From a bacterium (GTDB lineage: Bacteria > Sumerlaeota > Sumerlaeia > SLMS01), in NCBI GenBank assembly GCA_016125005.1, contig WGMQ01000021.1, positions 8,312 through 72,311 on the forward strand: a stretch of 64,000 bases of DNA, in the 5' to 3' direction. Numbering within the stretch: the stretch's first letter is position 1; every line of letters starts with the position of its first letter. The notes beneath the pieces were generated by a model. It was not told the DNA's origin. It ran no database searches and saw nothing but the letters and a program-made list of their open reading frames with translations. This document shows positions 4,241 to 19,431 of the stretch, piece by piece. The translations under genes were made by a program, and so were the position numbers.

Positions 4241-4310
4241 CTGCTTAACCAGAAGGGTGAAATGCCGCAGCTCTTCAGGCGGTAAACTTCATCACTCGGA
4301 GAAAGCAGTC

Positions 4311-4979: not shown

Positions 4980-6692
4980 ATGACAAACGCGACCCAGCCA
5001 GCCAGCACCCCCAAGCTCGAAGAGCAGCCTATCCTCCAGCGCATGGTTGCCGCCCGCCAGATTCCCTCCGGCGACGCGGCCCAGTTCCTTGCCGCCTTTC
5101 GCGGTGAGGTGGCCACGGAGGAGGAGGTGCTGGCCTGGCTGGCCGCCGAGTACGATTGTCTATACAACGACCTGGAGGGCGCGGCGCCTGAGCGCGAGAC
5201 GCTCGCCCTCTTTCCTCCCCGCCTCCTGCTGAAGGAAGGCATTCTTCCCCTGCGCCGCGACGGCGAAGTGATCGAGGCCGCCACCAGTCGCCTTTTTGCG
5301 CCCGAGGCCTTCGACAGCCTTCGTGTCGTCACCGGCCTCACCATTCGCCCTGTCCTCTCCCCCACCGTCGCGATTCAGCGCGAGACGAAGAAGTGGCTGG
5401 GTGTCGGCGCCGATACCATCGGCACCATCGAGGAGGAAGAGGGTCTTCAGGTTGTCTCCGACGAGGGCGCCGAGGACGGCGACCTGGACGATGCCGCCGA
5501 GGATGCCTCTATCATCCGCTTCGTCAACCAGGTGCTGACCGACGCGGTAAACCTGCGTGCGTCCGACATCCATCTGGAACCGTTCGAGGACGAGCTGCGC
5601 CTACGCTATCGTATAGACGGCCTGCTTCAGGAAATTCCAGTCCCCGCCAGCCTCAAGCGATTCCAGCCCGCCATCGTTTCCCGCATCAAGATCCTCAGCC
5701 AGTTGGACATTGCCGAGAAGCGCCTCCCGCAGGACGGACGCATCAAGATCCGCCTGGAGCAGAAGGAAATCGACGTCCGCGTTTCGCTGATTCCCATGCT
5801 CTACGGCGAAGGCGTCGTCATGCGCCTCCTGCGCCAGGACCGTTCCATCGCGGGCCTCGGTGAAATGGGCATGGCACCGCGCGACGTGAGCGTCTTCCGC
5901 CAATTGCTCGATGTGCCCCACGGCATCGTGCTCGTCACCGGCCCGACCGGCAGCGGCAAGTCCACCACGCTCTATTCCGCCCTCAGCGAGATCAACGATC
6001 AGGTCCGCAAGATCATCACCATCGAGGACCCGGTCGAGTATCACATCAAGGGCGTGAACCAGATTCAGGTGAACGAGAAGACGGGCCTTACCTTCGCCCG
6101 CGGCCTCCGCTCGATCCTGCGTCACGATCCCGACGTGGTGCTGATCGGCGAAATCCGCGACAACGAGACGGCCCGCATCGCCGTGCAGGCGTCCCTCACG
6201 GGTCACTTGGTCTTTTCGACGCTGCATACCAACGACGCCCCCGGCGCCCCGACCCGCCTGATCGACATGGGGATCGAACCCTATCTCGTCGCCTCCTCCC
6301 TTGAAGGCATCATGGCCCAGCGCCTCGTCCGTGTCCTGTGTCGTTCTTGTCGCCGCGAGGACACCACTTCCGCAAGCCGTCTATACGCCCGCCAGATGGG
6401 CATTGCCGACAGTGCACGTCTATACGTACCCGAGGGCTGCGAGAAGTGCCGCCGCACCGGCTACGATGGACGACGTGGCATCTTTGAACTCATGCGCCTC
6501 GACGATTCGCTGCGCGAGATGATCCTCCATTCCCGTTCCTCCGTCGCGCTGCGTGATGCGGCGCGCCTGGCGGGAATGCGGACCCTTGCCGAAGACGGCA
6601 CACGCCTTGTGGGCGAAGGGGTCACATCCTTCGACGAAGTGCTTCGCGTGAGTCGCGTTGAGGGCAACGCGGCTAAGAACGAGGCTGGCTGA
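4980..6692 (+). CDS. gspE: type II secretion / type IV pilus assembly ATPase
   Basis: Walker A GPTGSGKST, Asp box, His box and a C-terminal tetracysteine (CRSC...CEKC) zinc motif; GspE/PilB family. Confidence 0.9.
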   Translation: MTNATQPASTPKLEEQPILQRMVAARQIPSGDAAQFLAAFRGEVATEEEVLAWLAAEYDCLYNDLEGAAPERETLALFPPRLLLKEGILPLRRDGEVIEAATSRLFAPEAFDSLRVVTGLTIRPVLSPTVAIQRETKKWLGVGADTIGTIEEEEGLQVVSDEGAEDGDLDDAAEDASIIRFVNQVLTDAVNLRASDIHLEPFEDELRLRYRIDGLLQEIPVPASLKRFQPAIVSRIKILSQLDIAEKRLPQDGRIKIRLEQKEIDVRVSLIPMLYGEGVVMRLLRQDRSIAGLGEMGMAPRDVSVFRQLLDVPHGIVLVTGPTGSGKSTTLYSALSEINDQVRKIITIEDPVEYHIKGVNQIQVNEKTGLTFARGLRSILRHDPDVVLIGEIRDNETARIAVQASLTGHLVFSTLHTNDAPGAPTRLIDMGIEPYLVASSLEGIMAQRLVRVLCRSCRREDTTSASRLYARQMGIADSARLYVPEGCEKCRRTGYDGRRGIFELMRLDDSLREMILHSRSSVALRDAARLAGMRTLAEDGTRLVGEGVTSFDEVLRVSRVEGNAAKNEAG

Positions 6693-7912
6693 TGGGCATG
6701 TACTCGTACAGGGCTGTCGGCCCCGCGGGGATGACCGAGGGCCAGATCGAAGCGGGAGGCCGCCAGGAGGCGCTTCGGCTCCTCGAAGGACGCGGCCTGC
6801 GTCCCATCCGTGTCGACGACAGCGTGGCACGCCCTGCGCAGGCGAGCGGCAGTGGTTGGAACCTGCTTCCCAGCCAGGTCACCGCCCGCGACCTCGAACG
6901 TTTCACACGCCAGCTTTCCAGCCTTCTCGCCGCGGGCGTTCCCCTGAGCCGCTGTCTTTCGATTTTGGGTCGCGACGGTTCCCGTCCCGCGGCCGTTGCC
7001 GCATGGCGCCAGCTCCGTGACATGGTGGTCGATGGCGTGGCGCTCGCCGATGCGATGGCGCGGCAGCCGACGGTCTTCCCGCGTGTCTATACAGCCATGG
7101 TTCGGGCCGGCGAGGCGGGTGGATTCCTCCCGCTCGTGCTCGGCCAGGTGGCTGATTTCCAGGCGCGCGACAAGGAACTGCGCTCGCGCCTTGTCTCCGC
7201 CATGACCTACCCGGCGGTCCTGCTGCTGCTCACCATCGCCGTGCTGATCTTCCTCATGACCTTCTTCATCCCGCGCTTTCAGGTCATGTTCGAGGGTCTC
7301 GGCGCGCCGCTCCCCGCGTTGACAAACGTCATCATCGCGGCGAGCGAGATCGTCCGCTCCTACGGCTTCATCGTGACCGGCGTACTCATCGTCGGCGTGG
7401 TTGCGGCACGGCAGTGGCTCGCGTCCGACGAAGGTCGCCGCGCCTGGCAATCACTTGTCCTCAAGATGCCGGTCTACGGCCCGCTTGCCGGTCGCCTGGC
7501 CGCCACGCGCTTCTGCCGCATGCTCGGCACGCTGACCAAGTCCGGTGTCGAGCTCATCGCCGCCCTGCAAATCGCCCGCGAATCGCTCGGCAATCAGATC
7601 CTCGCGGATGCCCTCACCACCGCCATCGAGCGCGTCCGCAAGGGCGAGTCACTGGCCAAGGGCCTCGCACTCTGCCCTGACCTTTTTCCCCCGACCATCA
7701 TCGAAATGATCGCCGTGGCGGAGGAGTCGGGCAATCTGGACACCGAATTGGTGCGCCTCGCCGAGGAATCGGAGAAGGAACTCGACGCACAACTTCGCCT
7801 CGCGGTCGCGCTCGCAGAACCGGCGCTTCTCTTCATCATGGCCTCGTTCATCGGGACGATCTTTGTCGGCATGGTCCTGCCGATTTTCACCATCCAAGAC
7901 TACATCAAGTAA
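6692..7912 (+). CDS. gspF: type II secretion inner-membrane platform protein
   Basis: 406 aa, duplicated GspF/PilC domain, three TM segments; the ATG overlaps the gspE TGA (TGATG). Confidence 0.9.
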   Translation: MGMYSYRAVGPAGMTEGQIEAGGRQEALRLLEGRGLRPIRVDDSVARPAQASGSGWNLLPSQVTARDLERFTRQLSSLLAAGVPLSRCLSILGRDGSRPAAVAAWRQLRDMVVDGVALADAMARQPTVFPRVYTAMVRAGEAGGFLPLVLGQVADFQARDKELRSRLVSAMTYPAVLLLLTIAVLIFLMTFFIPRFQVMFEGLGAPLPALTNVIIAASEIVRSYGFIVTGVLIVGVVAARQWLASDEGRRAWQSLVLKMPVYGPLAGRLAATRFCRMLGTLTKSGVELIAALQIARESLGNQILADALTTAIERVRKGESLAKGLALCPDLFPPTIIEMIAVAEESGNLDTELVRLAEESEKELDAQLRLAVALAEPALLFIMASFIGTIFVGMVLPIFTIQDYIK

Positions 7913-7934
7913 CCAAACAAAAGGAGCCTCACAC

Positions 7935-8360
7935 ATGATCCGCCAAGGAAGAAACTCACGCCGCCGCGGCTTCTCGCTCGTCGAGATGCTGCTGGTGCTC
8001 GTCATCCTCGCCACGCTGGCCGCCATCGTAATCCCGCGCTTCGCGGGCCGCAGCGAGCAGGCCAAGGTCACCGCCGCGGAGACGCAAATCACCAGCATCT
8101 CCACTGCCCTCGATTCCTTCGAGGTCGACAACGGGTTCTACCCGCCCTCCGGCGAGGGTCTCACCCAGCTGACCACGAAGCCCGACAGTGCGACCAACTG
8201 GCGGGGGCCGTACCTCAAGCAGGGCGTTCCCAACGATCCGTGGGGTGCCGCCTACGTCTACGAGTTCCCCGGCAAGAACAACGAGCAGGGGTATGACCTT
8301 TCGTCCCTGGGTCCCGACGGTCGCGCCGGCACCGACGACGACATCAAGAACTGGAAGTAA
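7935..8360 (+). CDS. gspG: major pseudopilin (prepilin-type N-terminal cleavage/methylation domain)
   Basis: AAGGAG Shine-Dalgarno 9 nt upstream; leader MIRQGRNSRRRG then FSLVEMLLVLVILATLAAIV with Glu at +5; C-terminal GspG-like core (NDPWG...Y). Confidence 0.85.
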   Translation: MIRQGRNSRRRGFSLVEMLLVLVILATLAAIVIPRFAGRSEQAKVTAAETQITSISTALDSFEVDNGFYPPSGEGLTQLTTKPDSATNWRGPYLKQGVPNDPWGAAYVYEFPGKNNEQGYDLSSLGPDGRAGTDDDIKNWK

Positions 8361-8369
8361 CCGACGGCC

Positions 8370-8873
8370 ATGACCTCGCTCCGCCAACAACGCTCGCGAT
8401 CGGGAGGCTTCACACTGCTGGAGCTGATGGTCGTGCTTGCGCTGCTGGCGCTGGCGGGGGCGCTGGTCGCACCCAACCTGAAGGGTCTCGCCCAGGGCCG
8501 CGGTCCCGAGGAGGAGTCCAGACGCCTCCTCGCTGCTCTGACCCACGCGCGGGACCTGGCGCGGAACAAGGGCGACCGCATCGTTTTCTGGGTGGCCGCC
8601 GACGGGAAAAGCTACGGTCTCCGCGAGACCCGTTCGGGTCGCGATGCATTTGTCTATACAGTTGGCGAGCGCCTTCGCGTGCAGGCCTTCGACGCAGAAT
8701 CGAAGGCAGTGGAGCAGCAGGAGGCGGACGCTTCCTTCTGGCCCGACGGCCTACCCGATGACGCGGCGACACCTCGGTTTCAGTTGCTGGAAAATGAGAC
8801 GGAAGTCGCCAACCTGACGCTCGACACCAACACACGCCGATACGTCCTGACGGTGGCCGCCAATGCGCCCTGA
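8370..8873 (+). CDS. minor pseudopilin, GspH-like
   Basis: Prepilin leader ...SGG|FTLLELMVVLALLAL with Glu+5; size and position after gspG fit GspH. Confidence 0.6.
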   Translation: MTSLRQQRSRSGGFTLLELMVVLALLALAGALVAPNLKGLAQGRGPEEESRRLLAALTHARDLARNKGDRIVFWVAADGKSYGLRETRSGRDAFVYTVGERLRVQAFDAESKAVEQQEADASFWPDGLPDDAATPRFQLLENETEVANLTLDTNTRRYVLTVAANAP

Positions 8874-9237
8874 TCGCGGACAGAACGCCATGACCTTCGC
8901 CGAGTTGCTCGCCGCCATGACCATCATCGCCATCGTGATGCCCGTCATGGTCGGCGCGGTCCTGTTTGCGAACCGGACCGCGGTGATGGGCTCGCGCCGT
9001 GCGGAGGCGGCGTGGCAGGCTGATCAACTCATGCAGGAGGCCATCGCCACGGGAACTTGGCAGGACGGCGACGAGGAAGGTGAACTCAGCAACGGCATGA
9101 CCTGGCGTCGGGAGACCGATGACTGGGATGTGGAGGCACTCTCCACCGTGACCGTGTCCGTCGACTATACGGTGCAGGGAACTGTCTATACAGAGTCCGT
9201 CGTGCGTGCTGTCCGGGTGCCGGAGGCAGAAGAATGA
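8863..9237 (+). CDS. minor pseudopilin, GspI-like
   Basis: Short leader MRPDRGQNA then MTFAELLAAMTIIAIV with Glu+5; the alternative start at 8890 is in the same frame. Overlaps the GspH-like gene by 11 nt. Confidence 0.55.
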   Translation: MRPDRGQNAMTFAELLAAMTIIAIVMPVMVGAVLFANRTAVMGSRRAEAAWQADQLMQEAIATGTWQDGDEEGELSNGMTWRRETDDWDVEALSTVTVSVDYTVQGTVYTESVVRAVRVPEAEE

Positions 9238-9905
9238 ACCGCCGCCGCGCCTTCACCTTGATTGAAGTCCTGATCTCGCTGGCGATTGCCGGTGTGTTGC
9301 TGGCTGCGGTCATCTCGGCCTTGATCGGTTCTATTCGCCTGCGCCGCACCGCCGAACGTCTGGAAACGGAATCAGAGCCCCTTGCCTGGTTCCGCTCCAC
9401 CGTCCGACGCGACTTCGCCAACGCCGTCGTTCCGTCCGGCATCCTTGCTGGCTCCTTCATCGTCACCTCGTCGGGTGAGGAGGAATCCTCCCGCGATCAC
9501 ATTTGGTTCTATACCACTGCGGGCGTCGTGACCGACGCGGCACCGTGGGGCGATGTGCGCAAGGTAGAGTATTTCCTCGATGAGGAGTCTCCTGCCGAGG
9601 GGGAGGAGGAGGCTTATCCTCTCATCCGCCGCGAGACGTTCAATCTCCTCTCCACCGTTGCCGACGAGACGACCTGGCGCGACACGGTGCTGGAGGCGAA
9701 GGCCACCGGCTTTTCCATCGAATGCAGTGACGGCGAGGAGTGGACTGAGTCCTGGGATTCCACTGTCGTGGAAAACGAGAATCCCACGGCAGTGCGCCTC
9801 ACTGTCTATACAGCAAGTGCTGAGCCGCGCGTCGTCGTGCAGGAGATCGTCACACAGCCCCGCCCCGTGGCCGCTGTGGCCGCTGCAGGTGGAGGCACGC
9901 CATGA
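9234..9905 (+). CDS. minor pseudopilin, GspJ-like
   Basis: Leader MNRRRA then FTLIEVLISLAIAGVLLA with Glu+5; 223 aa. Confidence 0.55.
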   Translation: MNRRRAFTLIEVLISLAIAGVLLAAVISALIGSIRLRRTAERLETESEPLAWFRSTVRRDFANAVVPSGILAGSFIVTSSGEEESSRDHIWFYTTAGVVTDAAPWGDVRKVEYFLDEESPAEGEEEAYPLIRRETFNLLSTVADETTWRDTVLEAKATGFSIECSDGEEWTESWDSTVVENENPTAVRLTVYTASAEPRVVVQEIVTQPRPVAAVAAAGGGTP

Positions 9906-11242
9906 GACTCGACCGCCGCGGCATCGTGTTCGTCGTCCTGCTGTGGGCTATCATGGCCCTAACAACCGTCGCCATCTACTTTGCCCATTCCTCGCGCCTT
10001 GTCTATCTCGCCAGCGAATCAGCCGCCGCAGGCTATCAGGCCGAGAATGCGATTTCCTCCGCCGTCGAGTATTTCCTCTATGCGATCCAGACGGAGGAGC
10101 CGGAAGGCAAGTATCTCGACCTGGAGACCGACGGCTACGAGGTGAGTCAAGTACCCCTCGGTGAGGCCCGGTTCTGGTTCCTCGGCTGGGATCGCAACGC
10201 CCTAACCGAGCCATCATCACCTGTCTATACAGCGGTCGACGAAGCAGCGAAGCTCAACATCAACACCGCCGATCAGGAAATGCTCGCAGCGCTCCCGGGC
10301 ATGACCAGCGAGTTGGCTGCGGCCATCGTCGATTGGCGTGATACCGACGAGGAACTTTCCTCGGAAGGCGCAGAGTCGGCCGACTATCTCACGCTCGACA
10401 CCCCCTACGCCGCAAAGAACTCGGAGTTCGAAAGCATCGACGAAATCCGCCTCCTCCACGGCGCCGATCCGGAGATCCTCTACGGCGAGGACCGGAACAT
10501 GAACGGCGTGCTCGACCAGAACGAAAACGACGGTGACGCCTCCTGGCCGCCCGACAACGAGGACGGTATCCTCCAGACGGGCATCATGCGCTACATCACG
10601 GTTTTTTCGCGCGAACCCAACACGAAGAGCGACGGATCGAACAAGGTGAACCTGCGCGGCCAAAGTGCCCGCAGCGACTTGCAGACGCTGGTCAGCGAGC
10701 GACTCGGCGGCGATGTCTTCAACCAGATAATCGCCAACGCGGGGAACAACCTGGGACGACCTGACAGCGTCCTTGCCTTCTATCTTTCCAGCGGTCTTTC
10801 CGAGGCCCAGTTCCGCGAGATCGAGAACGACCTCACCGTCTCGGAGGGCGAGTATCGCATCGGTGCCGTGAACGTGGTGACGGCGCCGCTCGCGGTGCTT
10901 GCGTGCCTGCCGGGAATCACCGGCGAGAAGGCAGAGGAGATCGTCAATGCGCGCCTCAGCCTCACCGACGAGCAGCGCGAGAGCGTGCTCTGGCTTACCA
11001 CGATTCTTGACCCCGACACCTGCCGATTGGTCGGACCGCACATCACGGCGCAGAGTTGGCAGTACGGTCTGGACATCGTCGCCGTGGGTCGCAACGGGCG
11101 CGGCTTCCGCCGCGAATTCGTCGTGGTTGATGTCGAGGACCCGCCGACCGTGATTTTCCGCCGCGATCGATCCCGCGAGGGCTGGCCGCTCGGCGATGAA
11201 GAATTGGAATCCCAAACCGAAGGAGTCGCTTCCAGCCGATGA
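9902..11242 (+). CDS. gspK: minor pseudopilin GspK
   Basis: N-terminal TM without Glu+5 (typical of GspK); KLNINTADQEMLAALPGM...AAIVDWRD helix-hairpin-helix/SAM-like GspK signature. Confidence 0.75.
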   Translation: MRLDRRGIVFVVLLWAIMALTTVAIYFAHSSRLVYLASESAAAGYQAENAISSAVEYFLYAIQTEEPEGKYLDLETDGYEVSQVPLGEARFWFLGWDRNALTEPSSPVYTAVDEAAKLNINTADQEMLAALPGMTSELAAAIVDWRDTDEELSSEGAESADYLTLDTPYAAKNSEFESIDEIRLLHGADPEILYGEDRNMNGVLDQNENDGDASWPPDNEDGILQTGIMRYITVFSREPNTKSDGSNKVNLRGQSARSDLQTLVSERLGGDVFNQIIANAGNNLGRPDSVLAFYLSSGLSEAQFREIENDLTVSEGEYRIGAVNVVTAPLAVLACLPGITGEKAEEIVNARLSLTDEQRESVLWLTTILDPDTCRLVGPHITAQSWQYGLDIVAVGRNGRGFRREFVVVDVEDPPTVIFRRDRSREGWPLGDEELESQTEGVASSR

Positions 11243-12633
11243 TTTCCTTGTCCCAAGCGACAATCCGGGAACGCACGCGCAGGTTGCTGCTGTGCGAGTT
11301 CCGTCCCGATGGCGCGATGCTGTGTGAGTACGCGGTTGGCTCGGCGGGAGCGCGCCAGACCGCGGCGCTTTCCGCCGCCATCCCCGGCGATCCCTGCGGT
11401 CCTGACGCGGCCACGTTCGGCGCCCAGCTTCGCCTGCTCATGCAGGAGCACAAGCTTCGCGGCGGCGCGTGCCTCGTGCTGGTCCCGCTCTCGTGGGTCG
11501 TGACGCACAGCTTCGAAACGCCCGCGCTCTCAGACGCGGACCTGCAATCCATGATCACCCTTGAGGCCGAGAAGGTTTTCCCCTTCGGGCCGTCGGAGCA
11601 GGTCCTCGGCAACTCCGTCATCCGTCCTTCGGAATCGGCAGCCGTCGTCACGCTGGTGGCCATGCAGGCGACACGGCTCGATGCACTGGAGCGTGCGCTT
11701 CGCGGTGCGGGCCTCGGCCCTGTGGCCATCGCCGTCCAAGGCTTTGACGACAGCACCGAAGCCGCGAGTGCGCGCCTCCTGACGGGCCCTTCCGGCCTGC
11801 TGCTCTCGGTGAGCCAGAGCGGTTCCGTCGTGGCGCTGCGCCACCTTTGCGACGCGACGGCGCTCGGCGACCTGGCCGAGCCAGCGCGCCGCGCTGATCT
11901 CGTGCGCGAGGTGAAGATGTCCCTCCGCGCGCTTCCGCAGGCCCTGGGTGCCGCACCGACTGCCATCGTGCTCGAATGGGATCAGGGGCTTCAGGAAAGC
12001 CAGATCGCACCGCTCGCCGAACAGTTCCGCAAAAGTGGCTTCGACCTGCAAAGCCGCCGGGTGACCGAAGGCGAGCAGCGCGTCCGCCTGATCGAGCGCT
12101 GGGCGAAGGAGCATCGCCTCGCGGTGAACCTGCTTCGCCCCCGCCTGTCGCGCTGGGAACGCACCTTCCGCGCGATGAACCGCCGCGGCCTACTGGTCCG
12201 TGCCGTGGCGGGTGCGGGCACCCTGGTGGCCCTCGTGGCGCTGCTGTTCCTCTACCGTGGCTGGCGTGCCTCCTCGCTCGAATCACAGTGGAGCCGCATG
12301 GAATCAGACGTCGCCGTGGTCGAGGGGCTCGAACAGGACATTCGCGCATGGCGGGCCTGGTACAACCCGGCCGTTCCCACGCTCGACCTGATGAAGTCGC
12401 TGACCGAGGCATTCCCCTCCGGTGGCGATGTCTATACAAAGACGCTTCAGATTCGTGACCAACGTGAAGTGATCTGCACCGGCACGGCCAAACGACGGGA
12501 GGATTTTGTGAAGTTTCAGGAGAAACTCGGTGCCACGGCGGGAGTCAGTGGATTGCAGGTCCAGCAGCTTCGCGGCGAGGAGCCCGTGCAGTTCAGCCTT
12601 ACGTTCCGCTGGGCAGGAAGGGGTGGCGCATGA
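11239..12633 (+). CDS. GspL-like assembly protein (cytoplasmic actin-like domain, TM, periplasmic domain; PilM/PilN-like fusion)
   Basis: 464 aa; one central TM (LLVRAVAGAGTLVALVALLFLY); position and topology match GspL. Confidence 0.5.
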   Translation: MISLSQATIRERTRRLLLCEFRPDGAMLCEYAVGSAGARQTAALSAAIPGDPCGPDAATFGAQLRLLMQEHKLRGGACLVLVPLSWVVTHSFETPALSDADLQSMITLEAEKVFPFGPSEQVLGNSVIRPSESAAVVTLVAMQATRLDALERALRGAGLGPVAIAVQGFDDSTEAASARLLTGPSGLLLSVSQSGSVVALRHLCDATALGDLAEPARRADLVREVKMSLRALPQALGAAPTAIVLEWDQGLQESQIAPLAEQFRKSGFDLQSRRVTEGEQRVRLIERWAKEHRLAVNLLRPRLSRWERTFRAMNRRGLLVRAVAGAGTLVALVALLFLYRGWRASSLESQWSRMESDVAVVEGLEQDIRAWRAWYNPAVPTLDLMKSLTEAFPSGGDVYTKTLQIRDQREVICTGTAKRREDFVKFQEKLGATAGVSGLQVQQLRGEEPVQFSLTFRWAGRGGA

Positions 12634-13163
12634 GCAACGATGCACGCAGGAAGCTCCTGATTGTCCTGGCGGGTTGCGGCGTCGGCCTCTTCCTGCTGGA
12701 TGCGGCAGTGCTCCGTCCGCTGGGCAATGCCTGGCAAAGTCAGGGGGAGCGCATCGCTACGGGCAGCCAGCAGGTGGAGCGCGGGAATGCCCTGCTTGAT
12801 CGACGCGATTCCACGAGCGGTCGTTGGAAGAGCATGAAGGACGGCTCGCTCCCGAAGGATACCGCCAAGGCCGAGTCGCTTGTGCTGAGTGCCATCGGCA
12901 ATTGGGCCGGACGTAGTGGGCTCACGGTGTCGAATATTCGCCCGCGCTGGGTCGTGATGAAGAACGTGGGCGACCGGTTCGAAGTCCGCCTGTCCGCCGA
13001 TGGCGACCTTGAGCGAGTCACGCGGTTCATCTATGAGTTGGAGACCGATAGTCTGCCGCTCGCGGTGGAGGAAACGCTCATCCGGTCGAAGACTGACTCT
13101 GGCGACGACCTGAGTCTTGAACTGCGCTTTTCGGCGCTTCGGATCGGGGGAACCGGCGCATGA
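12630..13163 (+). CDS. GspM/PilO-like bitopic inner-membrane protein
   Basis: 177 aa with an N-terminal TM (LLIVLAGCGVGLFLL) then a periplasmic domain; operon position. Confidence 0.45.
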   Translation: MSNDARRKLLIVLAGCGVGLFLLDAAVLRPLGNAWQSQGERIATGSQQVERGNALLDRRDSTSGRWKSMKDGSLPKDTAKAESLVLSAIGNWAGRSGLTVSNIRPRWVVMKNVGDRFEVRLSADGDLERVTRFIYELETDSLPLAVEETLIRSKTDSGDDLSLELRFSALRIGGTGA

Positions 13164-13696
13164 GACTCGTTGCTGTTGGTTGCCTTATCCTGGTCGCAGC
13201 CGTCGCGCTGGTCGGTGCGCAGGAATCCCGCAAGCCCGCGTCCGCGCGGTCCTTCTCCGACTACAACATCCTGCTCCAGCGGAACATCTTCAGCGCCAAG
13301 CGTCGCGCACCGGTCGTGGGCACACGCTCGACTGGGCCTGTCTCCACGGCGCCCACCATCGAGACGGTGACGCTCGTTGGTGTGGTGCTCCGTGACACGG
13401 GAAACATCGCGATCTTCGCCTCTGCGCTCAGTTCCGAGAGCGGTTCTCGAAACCCCGGTGAATCGGTGGCAGGGTTTCGTATAGACGAGATCAGGACGAC
13501 CTCCATCACCATGACGCGTGATGAGAAGAAGCTGGAATGGACGGTGGGGGGAATCCTCCGCCGTATAGACGGTGGCGATTGGTACCTCCCCGAGGCACCA
13601 GGCGCCGCCAGCGACATCACCGCCGATCCCGCCGCCGAGGCGGCAATCCTGAAACGTATGCGCGCCCGCCGGGCGCAGGAGGCCAGCAATGAGTAA
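13160..13696 (+). CDS. GspC/PilP-like secretin-interacting periplasmic protein (putative)
   Basis: 178 aa, N-terminal TM/signal anchor, then a predicted beta-rich domain; sits directly before the secretin genes. Confidence 0.4.
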   Translation: MRLVAVGCLILVAAVALVGAQESRKPASARSFSDYNILLQRNIFSAKRRAPVVGTRSTGPVSTAPTIETVTLVGVVLRDTGNIAIFASALSSESGSRNPGESVAGFRIDEIRTTSITMTRDEKKLEWTVGGILRRIDGGDWYLPEAPGAASDITADPAAEAAILKRMRARRAQEASNE

Positions 13697-15410
13697 GTAC
13701 CGACGTCTTTCCGCCCTGATCCTCTCCGGTGCGCTGGTGTTCCCACTCCTTGCGCAACCGGATCAAGCCCCGGAGCCGACACCGGAAGAGACCCCGGCAC
13801 CCACGCCGGAGCCTACGCCTGAACCGACTCCAGAGCCGACGCCGGAACTCATCCTCCTGGCACCCGTCGAGCCCGGTCCGCCCGATGAATCAGGCGCACC
13901 CCCTGCCGATATGGAGGGCGCTCCACCCGCAGGGATCGACACACCGGAGATGAATGGTTCCGCGATGGACTTCGAGGCCCAGATGCGCCTTCGTCGCCGC
14001 GACTCCGAGATGGAAGGCTCATCGTCCGGCTCTTCGCAGACCTCCGCCGAACCGACGCCGATTCCCAAGCTCATCAGCCTCAACTTCAAAGGCGCGCCCC
14101 TCAATACGGTGCTCGACTACCTCGCGGAGAGCACCGGCTACTCGGTCGTGCGCGGCACCACGGTCGAAGGCACTGTCGACGTCATCAGTCCGACCGCGCT
14201 CTCCACAGAGGATGCGTTGGAACTCGTCACCACGGTCCTCTACCAGCGCGGCTACGCGGCGCTTCGCGTCGGCAAGACGCTGACCATCGTGAAGCGCGAT
14301 GACGCCAGCAAGCGCAACGTCCCGGTCCGTCAGGGGGCCGATCCCGAGGAGATTCCCCTCAGTGACCAGATCGTGACGCAGATCATCCCGGTGCGCTACA
14401 GCCGCGCCAGCGAACTGGTCGACAACATCAAACCCCTCCTGCCCGAGAACTCGATCATCACGGCAAACCAGGGGAGCAACGCCATCATCCTGACCGACTC
14501 GCAGATGAACGTGCGTCGCGTGGTCGAGATCATCTCGGCGCTCGACAAGTCCTTCTCCGAGATCACGACGGTGCGCGCCTTCACGCTTCAGTATGCCGAC
14601 GCGAAGGCGACCGCGACGCTCATCACGACCCTCTTCCAATCGAACACCGCGACAGGGCAGAACGGACGCAACAACGGCGGTACCCAGTTCCGCGGCCCGG
14701 GCGGCCCCTTCGGCGGGAACCGCGGGGGCGACAGCTCCAGCTCCGATTCGTCCGCCGCGGCGCTTCAGGCTTCCTCTCGCATCGCCGCCGGTGCGGACGA
14801 GCGAACCAACACGCTGGTCGTGGCGGCGCCTGGAGCCCTGATGCCTGCCATCGAGGAGCTCCTCACGCAGATCGACAAGTCGACGGACGTCCTCACCGAG
14901 GTACGCGTCTTCCCCCTCAAGTACGCTGACGCCCAGGAGATGGCCACGCTGGTGACCAGTGTGTTCGCCCCGAGCAGTACAACAACCACCAGCGGCAGCA
15001 ATAACAACAATCGGGGCCAGCGCTTCTTCCAGTTCGGTGGCTTTGGCGGTTTCCGGGGACAAGGTGGCAACAGCCAGCAGACAGCGGGTCAGAGTGAGCG
15101 CCAACAGGCTGAGGATTCCGTCGTCGCCGTCGCGGACACGCGCACCAACTCGATCGTCGTGAGCGCCGTCGGAAGCGTGCTGGACCAGGTCGAGCAGGTC
15201 GTCAAGGGTCTCGACCGCGATCCATCCGGCACGAAGAAGGTCCACGTCTACGAGTTGAAGAACGCGCGCCCCGAGGAGGTCTCGGCCCTCATCGAGGAGA
15301 TGTTTGGCACCTCGACCTCGTCGTCGACCACGACGCGATCCTCGAACAATAACACGCGCTCGAACAACACGGGGACGCGGAACAATAATAACCGGAACAC
15401 GGGGAACTGA
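13689..15410 (+). CDS. secretin N-terminal module (N0-N1-N2 plus the first half of N3), separate ORF with its own signal peptide
   Basis: Signal peptide, then a (PEPT)n linker, an N0 domain (LISLNFKGAPLNTVLDYLAESTGYSVV) and repeated secretin N-domain beta-alpha units (IIPVRYSRASELVDNIKPLL; VRAFTLQYADAKATATLITTLF; VRVFPLKYADAQEMATLVTSVF; VHVYELKNARPEEVSALIEEMF). Each unit is interrupted by a Gly/Asn/Ser-rich low-complexity loop. The ORF stops at TGA 15408-15410. Confidence 0.7.
   Translation: MSKYRRLSALILSGALVFPLLAQPDQAPEPTPEETPAPTPEPTPEPTPEPTPELILLAPVEPGPPDESGAPPADMEGAPPAGIDTPEMNGSAMDFEAQMRLRRRDSEMEGSSSGSSQTSAEPTPIPKLISLNFKGAPLNTVLDYLAESTGYSVVRGTTVEGTVDVISPTALSTEDALELVTTVLYQRGYAALRVGKTLTIVKRDDASKRNVPVRQGADPEEIPLSDQIVTQIIPVRYSRASELVDNIKPLLPENSIITANQGSNAIILTDSQMNVRRVVEIISALDKSFSEITTVRAFTLQYADAKATATLITTLFQSNTATGQNGRNNGGTQFRGPGGPFGGNRGGDSSSSDSSAAALQASSRIAAGADERTNTLVVAAPGALMPAIEELLTQIDKSTDVLTEVRVFPLKYADAQEMATLVTSVFAPSSTTTTSGSNNNNRGQRFFQFGGFGGFRGQGGNSQQTAGQSERQQAEDSVVAVADTRTNSIVVSAVGSVLDQVEQVVKGLDRDPSGTKKVHVYELKNARPEEVSALIEEMFGTSTSSSTTTRSSNNNTRSNNTGTRNNNNRNTGN
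13776..13850 (+). repeat. tandem Pro-Glu-Pro-Thr coding repeat (PEPTPEETPAPTPEPTPEPTPEPTPE) in the secretin N-module linker
   Basis: Direct reading of the gagccgac / ccggag(c)c triplet-based repeats. Confidence 0.6.
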
Positions 15411-15418
15411 GCGCGATC

Positions 15419-16498
15419 ATGAGAAACGGAACCCAATTGTTCGTCGCCGCCATGGCGGCAGCCGCCCTGATCTCGGGCCAGCAGGCATCGGCACAGCCGG
15501 GCGAAGGAGGTCGCCAGGGAACCCGTGGCAACCTCGGCACCACGCTCGCGAAGGATGCCGTCGTCAAGTATGACCCGGAGACCAACTCGATCATCGTCAT
15601 TACCGACGACGACACGAACGAGCAAATCGCCCAACTCATCAACAAGCTGGACCAGCCCACACCGCAGGTCCTCATCAACGTGCTGTTCCTTGAGGTGACC
15701 TACACCAACGACCTCGACTACGGCCTTGAGGCTTCCTTCAACTGGAACAATGGCCGCGGCGTCGCGGAGAGCGACTTCGGCCTCGCGGGCGCGTCGCAAG
15801 GCGGCTTTCTGCGTATCCTGCAGGACGATATCTCGGTGACCATGCGGGCGCTTGCCGAGCGCGGCAAGCTGGAGGTCCTTTCGCGTCCGTCGGTCCTCGC
15901 ACGCAACAACGAGGAAGCCACCATCACCATCGGCCAGGAAGTCCCCTTCATCCGCAACTCGCGCGTGACGGACAACGGCCAGACCATCAACACCATCGAG
16001 TACGAGGACATCGGCATCATCCTCACGGTGACGCCGTCGATCAGCCCCGAGGGCCTGGTCGAGATGGAGGTCGCGCCGGAGATTTCAACGCTCACCAGCC
16101 AGACCGTTCCCATCACCGACACGACCAACGCCCAGGTCATCGCCAAGCGCTCAGCCAGCACCCGCGTGGTCGTTGCCGACGGGAAGACCGTTGTCATCGG
16201 CGGCCTGATGGAGGACAACTTCACCGAATCGGTTCGCAAGCTGCCACTGCTCGGCGACATTCCCGTGCTTGGTCCGTTGCTCTTCAGCCGCACGATCAAG
16301 AACAAGAGCAAGACCGAGCTGCTGATCTTCCTGACCCCAAGCGTCGTCACCGGGATCGAGGATCTGAGCCGCACCACCGACGAGGAACGTGCCCGCCTGC
16401 GCTTGGTCGACAAGGCCTTCAAGGGTGTCGACACCACACGCTATATCGACTCGCTCGAGAAGCCGTCCGAGTCGACCGAGGGCGAAGAGAAGAAGTAA
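15419..16498 (+). CDS. gspD: secretin C-terminal module (second half of N3, then secretin/gate domain), own signal peptide
   Basis: MRNGTQLFVAAMAAAALISGQQASA|QP signal peptide; AVVKYDPETNSIIVITDDDTNEQIAQLINKLD completes an N-domain; then the canonical secretin core (VLINVLFLEV...LSRPSVLARNNEEATITIGQEVPF...VVIGGLMED...LPLLGDIPVLGPLF...TELLIFLTPSVV). Confidence 0.8.
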   Translation: MRNGTQLFVAAMAAAALISGQQASAQPGEGGRQGTRGNLGTTLAKDAVVKYDPETNSIIVITDDDTNEQIAQLINKLDQPTPQVLINVLFLEVTYTNDLDYGLEASFNWNNGRGVAESDFGLAGASQGGFLRILQDDISVTMRALAERGKLEVLSRPSVLARNNEEATITIGQEVPFIRNSRVTDNGQTINTIEYEDIGIILTVTPSISPEGLVEMEVAPEISTLTSQTVPITDTTNAQVIAKRSASTRVVVADGKTVVIGGLMEDNFTESVRKLPLLGDIPVLGPLLFSRTIKNKSKTELLIFLTPSVVTGIEDLSRTTDEERARLRLVDKAFKGVDTTRYIDSLEKPSESTEGEEKK

Positions 16499-16522
16499 CG
16501 AGACGGAGCGAGGCATCGTCGC

Positions 16523-18076
16523 ATGGTGACGTTCGAGACACGCGAGAAGAGGCTGTTGCCGATCAGGGTCACGCTCGTGGCCCTGTGGGTGGCACTGGCC
16601 GTGTGGCTTGGCGTCGAGCACATGCACACGCAACGCAAGGCTCGGACGGCGTTGCTCCAGCGGGCCCGCGACATCTCGGACACGATCGCGCTGATCAGCC
16701 GCTCAAGTCGCTCTGGCCTGATTCGCGAAGACCGCCTTAATCGCGCACTCAGCGAACTCGTGCAGTGGGATTTGCTCGAGGCCATTGTCCTCCTGAACGC
16801 CCGTGGCGAGACCGTGGCATCCGCTGGTCACACGGAGCGTTACGATCCCAAGACGCTCGAACTCGGCGCGGTGCGCTGGTCCGAGGACTCGGTCATCGTG
16901 ATGAACCTCGTCGACCTTGGCTCCGAGCCGGGAAGCGAACCGCAGACCCGCAATCCCACCATCGTCATCCCGGCACCGGATCGGGAGGACCAACGCTTCC
17001 GCCCGCCGGGCGACCGCGATACAAGCGGCACGCTTGAGCGCCGCGAAATGCCCATGGGACCGCCGCCTCCACCCCCACCTGACGATAGGGTGACGTCCGG
17101 CCCGCTCCGCCAACAGCAACGACCGGCCCGCCCCCCGTGGGCACGCGATTCGTCGGGACGCCCGCCATGGATGAGCGAAAGCGAGTTCCGCGACCTGATC
17201 GAGCGCCGCGGCTTCCACAGCTTCGTGCTGATCCTCAACGCACGCCCCATGCGCGACGACCTCGCCGCAGACCGAAACCTGCGCCTCATTGTGGCGGTCA
17301 TCAGCCTGCTTGGCGTCGCCGGTCTGTTGGCGGGGCTGACGCAATGGAGTCGCTCCACCAGCCTCCTTCTCAAGCTGGTGCAGAGCCAGCAGCAGAACGA
17401 GTCCCTTCGCGAGTTGAACCTGGCCGCCGCAGGTCTGGCTCATGAGACACGCAATCCGCTCAACGTCGTGCGCGGCGTCGCGCAACTCATCGATCACGAC
17501 CCTGCCTCCCCTCCCGAGATTCGCGACCGTGTCCGTCAGATCATGGAAGAGATCGACATGGTCACGTTCCGGCTCAATGAGTTCATCCGCTACTCGCGCC
17601 CACCACAGCCGCACCTTTCCGCGACCAACCCGACGACGGTCGCGGAGAACGTTCGTACTGCCCTGCAAAGCGACATCGAGGGACGCGACGTCACCATCGA
17701 GGTGGAGACCGCCTCCTATCGTGTGGAAGCGGACGAGATGCTGCTGCGCCAGTTGCTCTTCAACCTCATGATGAACGCGGTGCAGGCCGTCTGCGAACCG
17801 GGTCGCATCCGCGTGCACGCCGAGCCCGGCGAAGGCGGGCAGTTGCGCCTGATCGTGGACGACAACGGCCCCGGCGTCGCGGAGGACTTGCGCCAGGAAG
17901 TCTTCCGCCCCTACTTCACCACCAGCGACCGGGGCAGCGGACTCGGTCTCGCTGTCGTGCGCCAGATCTGCGTCGCACACGGTTGGAACATTGAGTGCAC
18001 CACGGCACCCCTTGGCGGAGCCCGGTTTGTCCTCAGCGGCCTGCGAATGACCACCACACCACCGGCCACCTCATGA
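16523..18076 (+). CDS. sensor histidine kinase (PilS-like) with two TM segments and a Pro-rich periplasmic loop
   Basis: HisKA H-box LAHETRNPLNVV and an HATPase_c domain (N, G1 DDNGPG, G2 GSGLGLAV boxes); TM segments near residues 15-35 and about 250. Confidence 0.8.
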   Translation: MVTFETREKRLLPIRVTLVALWVALAVWLGVEHMHTQRKARTALLQRARDISDTIALISRSSRSGLIREDRLNRALSELVQWDLLEAIVLLNARGETVASAGHTERYDPKTLELGAVRWSEDSVIVMNLVDLGSEPGSEPQTRNPTIVIPAPDREDQRFRPPGDRDTSGTLERREMPMGPPPPPPPDDRVTSGPLRQQQRPARPPWARDSSGRPPWMSESEFRDLIERRGFHSFVLILNARPMRDDLAADRNLRLIVAVISLLGVAGLLAGLTQWSRSTSLLLKLVQSQQQNESLRELNLAAAGLAHETRNPLNVVRGVAQLIDHDPASPPEIRDRVRQIMEEIDMVTFRLNEFIRYSRPPQPHLSATNPTTVAENVRTALQSDIEGRDVTIEVETASYRVEADEMLLRQLLFNLMMNAVQAVCEPGRIRVHAEPGEGGQLRLIVDDNGPGVAEDLRQEVFRPYFTTSDRGSGLGLAVVRQICVAHGWNIECTTAPLGGARFVLSGLRMTTTPPATS

Positions 18077-19431
18077 CACGAATGCCCGAAAACACGCCCG
18101 TCCTGATCGTCGACGATGACGAGAACCAGCGGCGACTTCTCTCCGGCTGCCTCGCGCAGCACGGCTATGCAACCCTAACGGCGGCGGACGGGCTGGATGC
18201 GCTGGATCGGCTCGCCCGCGACCCCGTGGCGATGATCATCTCCGACATGCGGATGCCGCGCATGACCGGGCTGGACCTTCTCCGTGCGGCACGGGAGCGA
18301 GGCTACGATTTCCCGTTCCTGTTGGTGACGGCCTTCCCAGACGTGCGTGACGCCGTCGGCGCCATGCGCGACGGAGCGGTGAATTATCTGGAGAAGCCCA
18401 TCGATCTCGACGAGCTGCTGACCTCGGTTCGCACGGCACTCGGTAGAAGGATCTCCTCGGAAATCGCTCGCCCCGACGTGGCGATTCCTCCCGGCGTCAT
18501 CGCCGACAGCCCCCCCATGCGCAGCATCCTGCGCGACGTGGCGCTCGTTGGGCCGACCGATTCGCGCGTGCTCCTCACAGGCGAAAGCGGCACCGGCAAG
18601 GAGGTCATCGCCGACGCGCTCCATCGCATCAGCCCTCGCGCGCGCCAGCCCTTCCTCAAGGTCAACTGCGCGGCTATTCCCGAGAACCTCCTTGAAAGCG
18701 AGCTGTTCGGTCACGAAAAGGGCGCCTTCTCCGGTGCGGTGGCCCGTCGCGTAGGTGTCTTCGAGGAAGCGGACGGCGGCACCATCCTGCTCGACGAAAT
18801 CGGCGACATGCCGATGGCCCTTCAGGCCAAGCTCCTCCGCGTCATCCAGGACGGCGTCTTCCGCCGCATCGGCGGCTCGCAGACCCTCCACACCGACATC
18901 CGCCTCATCGCTTCAACGAACCGCGATCTGGAACAGGACATGATCGCGGGGCGCTTTCGCGAGGACCTTTTCTTCCGCCTCAACGTGTTCGAGATCCACC
19001 TTCCGCCGCTGCGCGAACGTCCCGAGGACATCATCCCCCTGGCCACGCACTTCGCCTCGGGATTCCTCGGCGGCAAGGTCCGCTTCTCCCCCGCAGCCGT
19101 CGCGCTACTCAGCGCCTATCGCTGGCCCGGAAACGTGCGCGAGCTGCGCAACGCCATGGAGCGCGCGGTCCTGGTGGCCCGCAGCGAGGTCATCCTCCCC
19201 GAACATTTCCCGCCCCGCCTCCAAACCCGCGACCACACGGCACCCGTGCAGCCTGCCTCCTCCGGCATGATCGCTGACGTCGAGCGCTCCCTGATCCTTC
19301 AGACCCTGAAGGCCAATCGCTACAACCGATCCGAATCGGCACGGGAACTCGGCATCAGCCGCCGCGCGCTCCTGTACAAGCTCCAGCGCCTCCGCGAAAT
19401 GGGCTTCGACGTCGACGGTGAGGCTCGGTAA
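18073..19431 (+). CDS. sigma-54-dependent response regulator (NtrC/PilR family)
   Basis: ATG overlaps the kinase TGA (ATGA). REC domain (LIVDDDE...D), AAA+ sigma-54 activator core (GESGTGKE, GAFSGA, ESELFGHEKGAF) and a C-terminal Fis-type HTH. Confidence 0.9.
   Translation: MTRMPENTPVLIVDDDENQRRLLSGCLAQHGYATLTAADGLDALDRLARDPVAMIISDMRMPRMTGLDLLRAARERGYDFPFLLVTAFPDVRDAVGAMRDGAVNYLEKPIDLDELLTSVRTALGRRISSEIARPDVAIPPGVIADSPPMRSILRDVALVGPTDSRVLLTGESGTGKEVIADALHRISPRARQPFLKVNCAAIPENLLESELFGHEKGAFSGAVARRVGVFEEADGGTILLDEIGDMPMALQAKLLRVIQDGVFRRIGGSQTLHTDIRLIASTNRDLEQDMIAGRFREDLFFRLNVFEIHLPPLRERPEDIIPLATHFASGFLGGKVRFSPAAVALLSAYRWPGNVRELRNAMERAVLVARSEVILPEHFPPRLQTRDHTAPVQPASSGMIADVERSLILQTLKANRYNRSESARELGISRRALLYKLQRLREMGFDVDGEAR

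What the first reader, a model, noticed from the sequence alone, without database searches (positions are those of the whole stretch)
13689..16498. Secretin encoded as two ORFs, split inside the last N-domain, each half with its own signal peptide
ORF 13689-15410 carries a signal peptide, the N0 domain and three and a half periplasmic N-domain beta-alpha units. ORF 15419-16498 starts in a different frame with a textbook signal peptide (MRNGTQLFVAAMAAAALISGQQASA|QP). Its first structured element (AVVKYDPETNSIIVITDDDTNEQIAQLINKLD) is exactly the missing second half of the N-domain begun by VHVYELKNARPEEVSALIEEMF at the end of ORF 1. A single frameshift cannot join them: the downstream frame has a TAA at 15389-15391 before ORF 1 ends. 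The break lies inside a low-complexity loop that also interrupts the two preceding N-domains. A two-polypeptide secretin whose N3 domain must reassemble in trans in the periplasm would be unusual; secretins are normally single chains.
Basis: partly seen in the sequence, partly recalled or inferred. Interest (0 to 1): 0.7.

Follow-up and report, generated by a model that had tools for sequence, protein, structure and literature searches.

The report
Two-gene secretin, split within a domain
The outer-membrane channel (secretin GspD) of this bacterium's type II secretion system is encoded as two adjacent genes, each with its own export signal, cut in the middle of a small periplasmic domain; the same cut is conserved in all 64 related genomes examined, so it is an old natural "split protein" and not an error.

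Summary
ORF 13689-15410 encodes a signal peptide, N0, three complete Secretin_N domains and the beta1-alpha1 half of a fourth. ORF 15419-16498 encodes a second signal peptide, the beta2-beta3-alpha2 half, and the secretin pore.

Joined in silico, the two halves match the whole Pfam Secretin_N profile (54 bits, against 29 for the C-half alone).

The split is conserved. In 64 of 64 assessable related loci (labelled Sumerlaeota, Verrucomicrobiota, Lentisphaerae, Omnitrophota) the N-half gene lies directly upstream of the C-half gene. The two genes sit in all three relative frames, 3-159 nt apart. In 63 of 64 loci the C-half starts with a signal-peptide-like segment.

Fused relatives, mostly Planctomycetota, have a 40-110 aa low-complexity loop exactly where the break lies. 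They form one clade, which fits a single ancient fission.

One Sumerlaeia lineage has a second fission at the homologous loop of an earlier N-domain, giving three genes.

Assembly error, pseudogene and recoding are effectively excluded. Reassembly of the domain in trans is strongly suggested but not shown.

I found no paper describing this. The nearest precedents are the rhizobial T3SS RhcC1/RhcC2 and the mitochondrial GspD/GspDN pieces. I rate it a new variant of a known kind.

The parts
4980..13163 (+). Upstream genes of the same type II secretion operon: GspE (4980-6692), GspF (6692-7912), GspG (7863-8360), pseudopilins (8370-8873 and on), GspJ (9234-9905), GspK (9902-11242), GspL/PilM-like (11239-12633), GspM-like (12630-13163).
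   Evidence: Pfam hits T2SSE, T2SSF, T2SSG, N_methyl, T2SSJ, T2SSK, PilM_2 and T2SSM_b. NCBIfam GspM, E 3e-8. The same gene order is seen in L001, L002, L083 and L084.
13160..13696 (+). 178-aa protein directly upstream of the N-half gene. It is a possible GspC-like connector.
   Evidence: No Pfam hit. A weak NCBIfam GspC_delta hit (E 2.5e-4, below the cut-off). A gene of 180-215 aa sits at this position in L001, L002, L083 and L084.
13689..15410 (+). gspD-N, the N-half of the secretin (573 aa). It has a signal peptide (aa 1-22), a Pro/Glu/Thr-rich linker, N0, three complete Secretin_N domains, the beta1-alpha1 half of the last N-domain, and a polar tail.
   Evidence: The NCBI record calls a shorter 499-aa product without a signal peptide (P0270). 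The 573-aa start at 13689 supplies one.
15234..15305 (+). N3a: beta1-alpha1 of the split domain (ORF1 aa 516-539, KKVHVYELKNARPEEVSALIEEMF).
   Evidence: Pfam Secretin_N profile 1-25 is matched only when this piece is joined to ORF2. AF2 places a strand at chimera 409-412 and a helix at 418-429, pLDDT about 75. The piece is conserved in 65 N-halves as strongly as the complete preceding domain.
15306..15410 (+). Low-complexity N/S/T/R tail of the N-half (aa 540-573) and its TGA stop. It is the remnant of the alpha1-beta2 loop.
   Evidence: tail median 43 aa across loci. pLDDT is below 50.
15411..15418 (+). 8-nt spacer between the two genes.
   Evidence: No promoter-like site and no + strand terminator-like site lie between the genes.
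15419..15493 (+). Signal peptide of the C-half (aa 1-25, MRNGTQLFVAAMAAAALISGQQASA, predicted cut before QP).
   Evidence: The hydrophobic core has mean Kyte-Doolittle hydropathy 2.5 over 10 aa. An equivalent segment is present in 63 of 64 split loci and 114 of 120 homologues. An x-x-[AGSTC]-Q site is present in 61 of 64.
15494..15553 (+). Gly/Arg/Thr-rich linker of the mature C-half (aa 26-45). It is the other remnant of the loop.
   Evidence: pLDDT below 50.
15554..15652 (+). N3b: beta2-beta3-alpha2 of the split domain (ORF2 aa 46-78, DAVVKYDPETNSIIVITDDDTNEQIAQLINKLD).
   Evidence: Pfam Secretin_N profile 26-69. Invariant residues D52, T55, S57, I59, D63, T66, I70, L77 and D78 in 15 homologues. 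AF2 pLDDT is 83-96.
15653..16498 (+). Secretin pore domain and C-terminal helices of gspD-C.
   Evidence: Pfam Secretin, E 4e-48. phmmer to solved GspD chains, E 4e-39. Foldseek best match PulD 6hcg, E 1e-30.
16523..19431 (+). Histidine kinase (16523-18076) and sigma-54-type response regulator (17995-19431). They are syntenic with the operon in relatives.
   Evidence: Pfam. The same pair follows the secretin genes in L001, L002 and L083.

Best explanation
This is an ancient, fixed gene fission of the type II secretion secretin GspD.

**Where the cut lies.** It falls in the long disordered loop between alpha1 and beta2 of the membrane-proximal N-domain ('N3', fold beta-alpha-beta-beta-alpha). 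A stop codon, a short spacer, a start codon and a new Sec signal peptide now sit where fused relatives have only loop.

**How it would work.** Both genes are co-transcribed as the last structural genes of a complete T2SS operon. Both products are exported separately.
- GspD-N is a soluble periplasmic chain: N0, three N-domains, beta1-alpha1 and a polar tail.
- GspD-C carries a linker, beta2-beta3-alpha2 and the outer-membrane pore.

The two half-domains then complement each other to rebuild N3. This ties the periplasmic vestibule, and through N0 the inner-membrane platform, non-covalently to the pore. The expected complex has 15 + 15 chains.

**Shown:** the two ORFs, the half-domain content, the conservation of the split, the signal-peptide-like starts, the loop at the equivalent site of fused relatives, and a second independent fission at the same kind of loop.

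**Inferred:** cleavage of the signal peptides, trans-complementation, stoichiometry, and any functional advantage.
For: **Domain content.**
- ORF1 has N0 plus 3 Secretin_N. ORF2 has Secretin_N 26-69/69 plus Secretin.
- The joined halves match the full Secretin_N profile at 54.3 bits, against 29 bits for the C-half alone.
- NCBIfam GspD model TIGR02517: ORF1 covers profile 1-334 (211 bits); ORF2's best stretch covers 403-597 (235 bits, two stretches).

**Conservation.**
- The top 120 C-half homologues are all 306-420 aa.
- The top 120 N-half homologues are all 460-612 aa and lack a Secretin domain.
- 64 of 64 assessable loci from a scan of species-representative genomes have the adjacent pair.
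- The spacer is 3-159 nt (median 36), and the relative frames are 29/18/15.
- Synteny is the same in L001, L002, L083 and L084.

**Signal peptides.**
- 63 of 64 C-halves start with a K/R-containing, hydrophobic, AxA|Q-type segment.
- Only 2 of 118 fused homologues have an internal hydrophobic segment of 12 aa with mean hydropathy of at least 2.3.

**The half-domain is under constraint.** The N-half ends with the consensus KVFVYSLENADVDNVAEILRGMFE. Its conservation equals that of the complete preceding domain, and it keeps the hydrophobic pattern seen in fused proteins.

**Fused relatives.** They carry a 40-110 aa low-complexity loop at exactly this site. They form one clade in a neighbour-joining tree of the pore domain.

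**Recurrence.** L033 has three ORFs. The extra cut is in the alpha1-beta2 loop of an earlier N-domain and again has a new signal peptide. L039 shows the same middle piece.

**Structure.**
- The AF2 model of the joined chain (mean pLDDT 74.8) predicts beta1-alpha1 at pLDDT about 75. A disordered 431-479 segment holding the junction follows. Beta2-beta3-alpha2 (83-96) and the pore come next.
- The best structural matches are T2SS GspD/PulD.
Against: No experimental data exist for any member.

Signal peptides were judged by hydropathy and motif only.

The AF2 model is a covalently joined single chain. Its alignment has the N-half rows partly out of register. The single-sequence model was poor (pLDDT 35.8).

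The tree is neighbour-joining without support values or an outgroup, so 'one fission' is only the simplest reading.

Only the best 80 of at least 574 related genome loci were inspected.

Nothing explains why the split is kept.
Confidence: 0.78

Rival explanations
1. The two proteins are real, but the half-domains do not rebuild one N3 domain within a protomer. GspD-N might be a free periplasmic adaptor that docks by other means, such as its conserved tail. Alternatively beta1-alpha1 might pair with the beta2-beta3-alpha2 of a neighbouring protomer (a domain-swapped ring), or the halves might adopt other folds.
For: Trans-complementation was not verified: there are no coordinates and no multimer prediction. 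The N-half tail carries a semi-conserved N-P-L-x-N-R motif. It ends in Arg in 39 of 65 loci and 81 of 120 homologues, although Arg makes up about 9% of the tails. This hints at an additional contact. A 17:17 secretin-partner complex held by beta-strand addition is known for BfpB-BfpG (PMC12531336).
Against: Both halves keep the sequence pattern of a normal Secretin_N domain, and together they match the full profile. DSSP assigns a strand to beta1 in the AF2 models, and its pLDDT (about 75) stands out from disordered flanks. An isolated beta-alpha unit is unlikely to be stable on its own.
Confidence: 0.15
2. A single full-length secretin is made by programmed recoding (ribosomal frameshift or stop-codon read-through) across the junction.
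For: In the window, ORF2's frame is open from 15392 and overlaps the end of ORF1 by 16 nt. In 29 of 62 loci the two genes are in the same frame.
Against: The relative frame varies (29/18/15) and the spacer is 3-159 nt, so no single recoding rule fits. My reading of 15392-15407 shows no X XXY YYZ slippery site. A fused product would carry an internal signal peptide, which only 2 of 118 natural fused proteins resemble. The signal peptide is conserved in 63 of 64 loci.
Confidence: 0.02
3. Sequencing or assembly error, or a recent pseudogenising lesion in this genome only.
For: A one-base indel inside 15392-15407 would fuse the frames. The window comes from a metagenome-type record ('bacterium', GC173_05885).
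Against: The split is found in 64 of 64 related loci from independent assemblies, including contigs of 10.5 Mb and 3.8 Mb. Homologues at 52-82% identity all have the short length. Both halves are conserved at the protein level, and the C-half has its own signal peptide.
Confidence: 0.01

Closest known systems
Classical single-chain T2SS secretin GspD/PulD/XcpQ (for example PDB 5wq7, 6hcg, 5wln)
   Same: Same domain order: N0, N-domains, N3, secretin pore. Same operon context (GspC-like, E, F, G, J, K, L, M). These are the best sequence and fold matches. The fused relatives, mostly Planctomycetota, are 45-54% identical in the pore domain.
   Different: Here the chain is cut inside the last N-domain and the second piece has its own signal peptide. 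There is one more Secretin_N domain than the classical N1-N3, and long low-complexity loops sit in three of them. Each half scores below the TIGR02517 cut-off on its own.
Split secretin of rhizobial-type T3SS: RhcC1 (NolW) and RhcC2, and HrcIIC1/HrcIIC2 in Pseudomonas syringae
   Same: A secretin encoded as separate N-terminal and C-terminal genes, conserved within a family of systems. The function of the split is unknown (PMC3574062).
   Different: This is a type III system, so the fission was an independent event. The two genes are not adjacent: they are separated by a TPR gene or lie in different segments (PMC3574062). I did not test where the break falls relative to an N-domain, or whether RhcC2 has a signal peptide.
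Mitochondrial T2SS-derived system: GspD, GspDL and GspDN1-3 in some protists
   Same: The secretin is broken into several polypeptides. [quoted passage not shown] This is the same kind of intradomain half-split seen here.
   Different: These are eukaryotic nuclear genes with mitochondrial targeting. [quoted passage not shown] No relationship by descent to the bacterial split family was tested.
BfpB-BfpG (and TcpC-TcpQ) secretin complexes of type IVb pili
   Same: A secretin ring with a second, separately exported periplasmic protein bound 1:1 (17:17) by beta-strand addition (PMC12531336).
   Different: BfpG is a whole N0-like domain that binds outside the N3 ring. It is not a fragment of a domain of the secretin itself.

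Membership tests
T2SS secretin GspD | C-terminal secretin pore domain (PF00263) | tested here: met
   ORF2 aa 144-310, E 4.2e-48. phmmer to 5wq7 gives E 3.8e-39.
T2SS secretin GspD | N0 domain followed by repeated Secretin_N (N1-N3) domains | tested here: met
   N0 at aa 131-196 and three Secretin_N stretches in ORF1. The last domain is completed by ORF2 aa 40-83.
T2SS secretin GspD | All domains on one polypeptide with one signal peptide | tested here: not met
   There are two ORFs in different frames, each with a signal-peptide-like start. The arrangement is conserved in 64 of 64 loci.
T2SS secretin GspD | Passes the NCBIfam equivalog model TIGR02517 (cut-off 351 bits) | tested here: not met
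   ORF1 scores 211 bits (profile 1-334). ORF2 scores 235 bits (best stretch 403-597). Each is below the cut-off on its own.
T2SS secretin GspD | Encoded in a T2SS gene cluster with GspE, F, G, J, K, L and M | tested here: met
   with the same order in relatives.
T2SS secretin GspD | Forms a roughly 15-mer gated outer-membrane channel | not testable with these tools
   Only a monomer model was possible. Its best fold matches are 15-mer GspD/PulD chains.
Rhc-type split T3SS secretin (RhcC1/RhcC2) | Part of a type III secretion cluster, homologous to SctC | tested here: not met
   The context is T2SS. The SctC models score far below the GspD model: 41 and 112 bits against 211 and 235.
Rhc-type split T3SS secretin (RhcC1/RhcC2) | Secretin encoded by two genes | tested here: met
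   The feature is described for Rhc in PMC3574062.
Mitochondrial GspD/GspDN set | Separate proteins that correspond to halves of a Secretin_N domain | tested here: met
   for this locus. PMC8134430 describes it for GspDN2 and GspDN3.
Mitochondrial GspD/GspDN set | Eukaryotic genes; pore piece without N3 | tested here: not met
   This is a bacterial operon, and the C-half keeps the second half of N3.

The most novel reading that the evidence does not exclude
The alpha1-beta2 loop of secretin N-domains may be a general 'breakable joint'. Periplasmic complementation of half-domains would then be a selected assembly device: a pore that inserts first, and a detachable vestibule that plugs in later and can be exchanged or released.

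The recurrence of the cut would make this a principle and not an accident. It occurs once at the base of a multi-phylum clade, again in a Sumerlaeia lineage (three genes), and in the half-domain GspDN2/GspDN3 proteins of the mitochondrial system.

It would also raise the possibility that the fragmented mitochondrial secretin had a bacterial split ancestor.
Probability: 0.12. Interest if true: 0.85.

Novelty: new variant of a known kind. Interest (0 to 1): 0.68.

Why it matters
Secretins are treated as single-chain homo-oligomers. [quoted passage not shown]

A clade spanning several phyla builds its T2SS channel from two exported chains joined through a split domain. That has three consequences:
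- It gives structural biologists a natural case of fragment complementation in the periplasm.
- It offers a handle on how the periplasmic vestibule couples to the pore and how secretins assemble.
- It explains why these genes are labelled 'hypothetical' or 'secretin N-terminal domain-containing protein', and why each half falls below the GspD model cut-off. This may lead automated surveys to under-count T2SS in these phyla.

It also gives a bacterial parallel to the fragmented mitochondrial secretin.

Tried and rejected
- **Akkermansia Amuc_1098-1102 cluster.** I followed this lead because one hit was labelled Akkermansia. Amuc_1098 is a 907-aa single-chain PilQ with TPRs, which is a different secretin (PMC4960237). 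The 'Akkermansia' label on L009 is probably a misassigned MAG; I did not check this.
- **AF2 on the joined chain without an alignment.** The model was uninformative (pLDDT 35.8).
- **AF2 with fused orthologues taken from genome loci.** I therefore spent the last homologue search on retrieving fused proteins.
- **Quality of the alignment finally used (A4).** It has the N-half rows partly shifted by one repeat, with termini stretched. The model of the N-domains should be read with care.
- **Coordinates.** They were not available in the sandbox, so contacts could not be measured.
- **Sigma-54 promoter search.** A -24/-12 consensus search gave 6 matches against 4.6 expected, none near the operon.
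- **Promoter and terminator scan of 13000-17000.** Nothing lies between the two genes.
- **Literature.** Six searches found no description of a split GspD in these bacteria. The library lacks most subscription journals, so this is not proof of absence.
- **Motif search for the C-half domain.** A first regular-expression search failed for many loci. It was replaced by coordinates from phmmer.


Full report
**1. The observation**

The window has two + strand ORFs, 13689-15410 (573 aa) and 15419-16498 (359 aa). They are in different frames and 8 nt apart, and a TAA lies at 15389-15391 in the second frame.

Pfam finds an N0 domain (aa 131-196) and three Secretin_N stretches in ORF1. In ORF2 it finds only the second half of Secretin_N (profile 26-69 of 69, aa 40-83), followed by the Secretin pore domain (aa 144-310).

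I joined the end of ORF1 to mature ORF2. One Secretin_N match then runs from profile position 1 to 69 across the junction. With the loop removed, the 80-aa construct scores 54.3 bits (E 1.6e-14), against 29 bits for the ORF2 half alone. ORF1 therefore ends with beta1-alpha1 (KKVHVYELKNARPEEVSALIEEMF, aa 516-539) and ORF2 supplies beta2-beta3-alpha2 (aa 46-78).

Both ORFs begin with a basic, then hydrophobic, then A|QP segment. I judged these by hydropathy and motif only.

ORF2's frame is open from 15392 and ORF1 stops at 15408, so an indel inside 15392-15407 could fuse the frames.

**2. Surroundings**

The two ORFs close a complete type II secretion operon:
- GspE, GspF, GspG, pseudopilins, GspJ and GspK
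- a PilM/GspL-like protein and a GspM-like protein
- a 178-aa protein with a weak GspC match
- then the two secretin genes

A histidine kinase and a sigma-54-type response regulator follow. No promoter-like or + strand terminator-like site separates the two secretin genes. The minus-strand ORFs over this region are the usual shadows of a G+C-rich coding strand.

The NCBIfam GspD model is covered at 1-334 by ORF1 (211 bits). ORF2's best stretch covers 403-597 (235 bits). Each is below the 351-bit cut-off. The source records name the two products 'hypothetical protein'.

**3. Is it an error?**

No.
- The 120 best homologues of ORF2 (52-100% identity) are all 306-420 aa.
- The 120 best homologues of the structured part of ORF1 are all 460-612 aa, with N0 and Secretin_N but never a Secretin domain.
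- A scan of one genome per species found at least 574 related loci, and I analysed the best 80.
- Of those 80 plus two loci fetched earlier, 64 carry the N-half gene directly upstream of the C-half gene. Sixteen carry one fused ORF. Two are cut by a contig end.
- The split loci are labelled Sumerlaeota, many Verrucomicrobiota (Opitutaceae, Chthoniobacterales, Pedosphaera, Limisphaerales), Lentisphaerae/Victivallales and Omnitrophota.
- The spacer is 3-159 nt (median 36), and the second gene lies in all three relative frames (29, 18, 15). This excludes a shared artefact and any single recoding rule.
- Two contigs of 10.5 and 3.8 Mb show the same pair in the same gene order, as do L001 and L002.

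**4. Anatomy of the break across the family**

In 63 of 64 split loci the C-half opens with a signal-peptide-like segment: K/R residues, then a 10-residue window of mean hydropathy at least 2.0. In 61 of 64 an x-x-[AGSTC]-Q site follows.

A Gly/Ser/Thr/Asn/Arg-rich linker comes next. It is followed by the conserved block DAxIxYDPETxSLIVITDEETNxxIxQxIxxLDxPxPQVLIKV.

The N-halves end with the consensus KVFVYSLENADVDNVAEILRGMFE. This is conserved as strongly as the complete N-domain before it. A polar tail of 34-67 aa follows.

The fused relatives show the same beta1-alpha1, then 40-110 aa of low-complexity loop, then the same beta2-beta3-alpha2. They are mostly labelled Planctomycetota, with two labelled Sumerlaeota and two others. 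Only 2 of 118 fused homologues contain an internal hydrophobic segment (12 aa, mean hydropathy at least 2.3).

The break is therefore a stop, a start and a signal peptide inserted into a loop that was already long and disordered. The two preceding N-domains of ORF1 have equivalent loops.

**5. History**

In a neighbour-joining tree of the pore domain, all fused proteins form one clade. A single branch separates them from all split proteins. All other known secretins are single chains. The simplest reading is therefore one old fission, followed by vertical descent and some transfer. The tree has no support values or outgroup, so this is an inference.

The Sumerlaeia locus L033 has three genes:
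- piece 1 ends with beta1-alpha1 of an earlier N-domain
- piece 2 starts with a new signal peptide (MKNLRTTTGALMVAAMLAGLTDAQA|Q) and the matching beta2-beta3-alpha2, and itself ends with beta1-alpha1
- piece 3 is the usual C-half

L039 shows the same middle piece. The same kind of loop has therefore been cut twice independently.

**6. Structure**

A single-sequence AF2 run of the joined chain was poor. With an alignment of 34 fused proteins, 56 C-halves and 56 N-halves, the joined chain gave mean pLDDT 74.8. The model shows, in chimera numbering:

| Element | Residues | pLDDT |
|---|---|---|
| N0, then three complete N-domains | 22-398 | mostly high |
| beta1 / alpha1 of the split domain | 409-412 / 418-429 | about 75 |
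| disordered stretch holding the junction | 431-479 | below 50 |
| beta2-beta3-alpha2 | 486-515 | 83-96 |
| pore | from 521 | mostly high |

Foldseek's best matches are PulD and GspD (E 1e-30 to 1e-21).

There are three caveats:
- The chain is artificially joined.
- The N-half rows of the alignment are partly out of register.
- I could not read coordinates, so the packing of the two halves is not verified.

**7. Mechanism proposed**

Both chains are exported by Sec. The C-half forms the outer-membrane ring. The N-half docks by completing the N3 domain, and so links the pore to the periplasmic and inner-membrane parts.

The gene structure, its conservation and the constraint on both half-domains are shown. 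Cleavage, complementation, stoichiometry and benefit are inferred.

The main rival accepts two proteins but a different mode of contact: a domain swap between neighbouring protomers, or docking through the tail. The tail has a semi-conserved N-P-L-x-N-R motif. It ends in Arg in 39 of 65 loci and 81 of 120 homologues, against about 9% Arg in the tails. I cannot explain that.

**8. Comparison with what is known**

Six literature searches found no description of a split GspD in these phyla. The library is incomplete. The precedents are:
- **Rhizobial-type T3SS secretin, RhcC1/RhcC2.** It is split into non-adjacent genes, and its significance is unknown (PMC3574062).
- **Mitochondrial T2SS-derived system.** GspDN2 and GspDN3 are the C- and N-terminal halves of a Secretin_N domain (PMC8134430). 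[quoted passage not shown]
- **BfpB-BfpG.** This is a 17:17 secretin-partner ring held by strand addition (PMC12531336).

The present case is a T2SS secretin by domain content, context and fold. It fails the single-chain feature, so I file it as a new variant of a known kind.

**9. Verdict**

The finding is real, conserved and well supported as a two-gene secretin split within a domain. The trans-assembly step awaits a multimer prediction or an experiment. Interest 0.68.

Noticed in passing
L033:1516-5062 and L039:313-2682: In two Sumerlaeia genomes the secretin is in three genes. A second cut lies in the alpha1-beta2 loop of an earlier N-domain, again followed by a new signal peptide.
   Followed up: partly
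window 15306-15407, and the N-half tails of L001-L082: The N-half tail has a semi-conserved N-P-L-x-N-R motif. Its last residue is Arg in 39 of 65 loci and 81 of 120 homologues, although Arg is about 9% of the tails. The window's own tail ends ...NTGN. The mature C-half almost always starts with Gln. Unexplained.
   Followed up: partly
proteins P0133, P0157, P0162, P0173 and others: The representative search returned secretin-domain proteins of 3000-5500 aa with 8-18 matched stretches. These are giant secretins, possibly with many repeated N-domains.
   Followed up: no
window 13689-13910: The public record calls the N-half as 499 aa (GC173_05880), starting at Met75 without a signal peptide. 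The ATG at 13689 gives a 573-aa product with a signal peptide and a Pro/Glu/Thr-rich linker of about 100 aa.
   Followed up: partly
window 16523-19431: A histidine kinase and a sigma-54-type response regulator follow the secretin genes here and in L001, L002 and L083. This suggests dedicated regulation of this T2SS. No -24/-12 promoter stood out.
   Followed up: partly
window 4257-4970: A gene just upstream of gspE encodes a protein with EF-hand calcium-binding motifs and a weak LTXXQ match (below the Pfam cut-off).
   Followed up: no
L021 and L022, start of the C-half: In this lineage the C-half signal sequence contains a lipobox-like L-I-G-C / L-A-C. The C-half may be a lipoprotein there.
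   Followed up: no
L083:8284-9642: A reverse-transcriptase gene (RVT_1) is inserted on the opposite strand between the C-half gene and the histidine kinase in a 10.5-Mb contig.
   Followed up: no
L009: The locus is labelled 'Akkermansia muciniphila' MAG and carries the split T2SS secretin. The well-known Amuc_1098 of A. muciniphila is a different, single-chain 907-aa PilQ (PMC4960237). The label may be a misassignment.
   Followed up: partly
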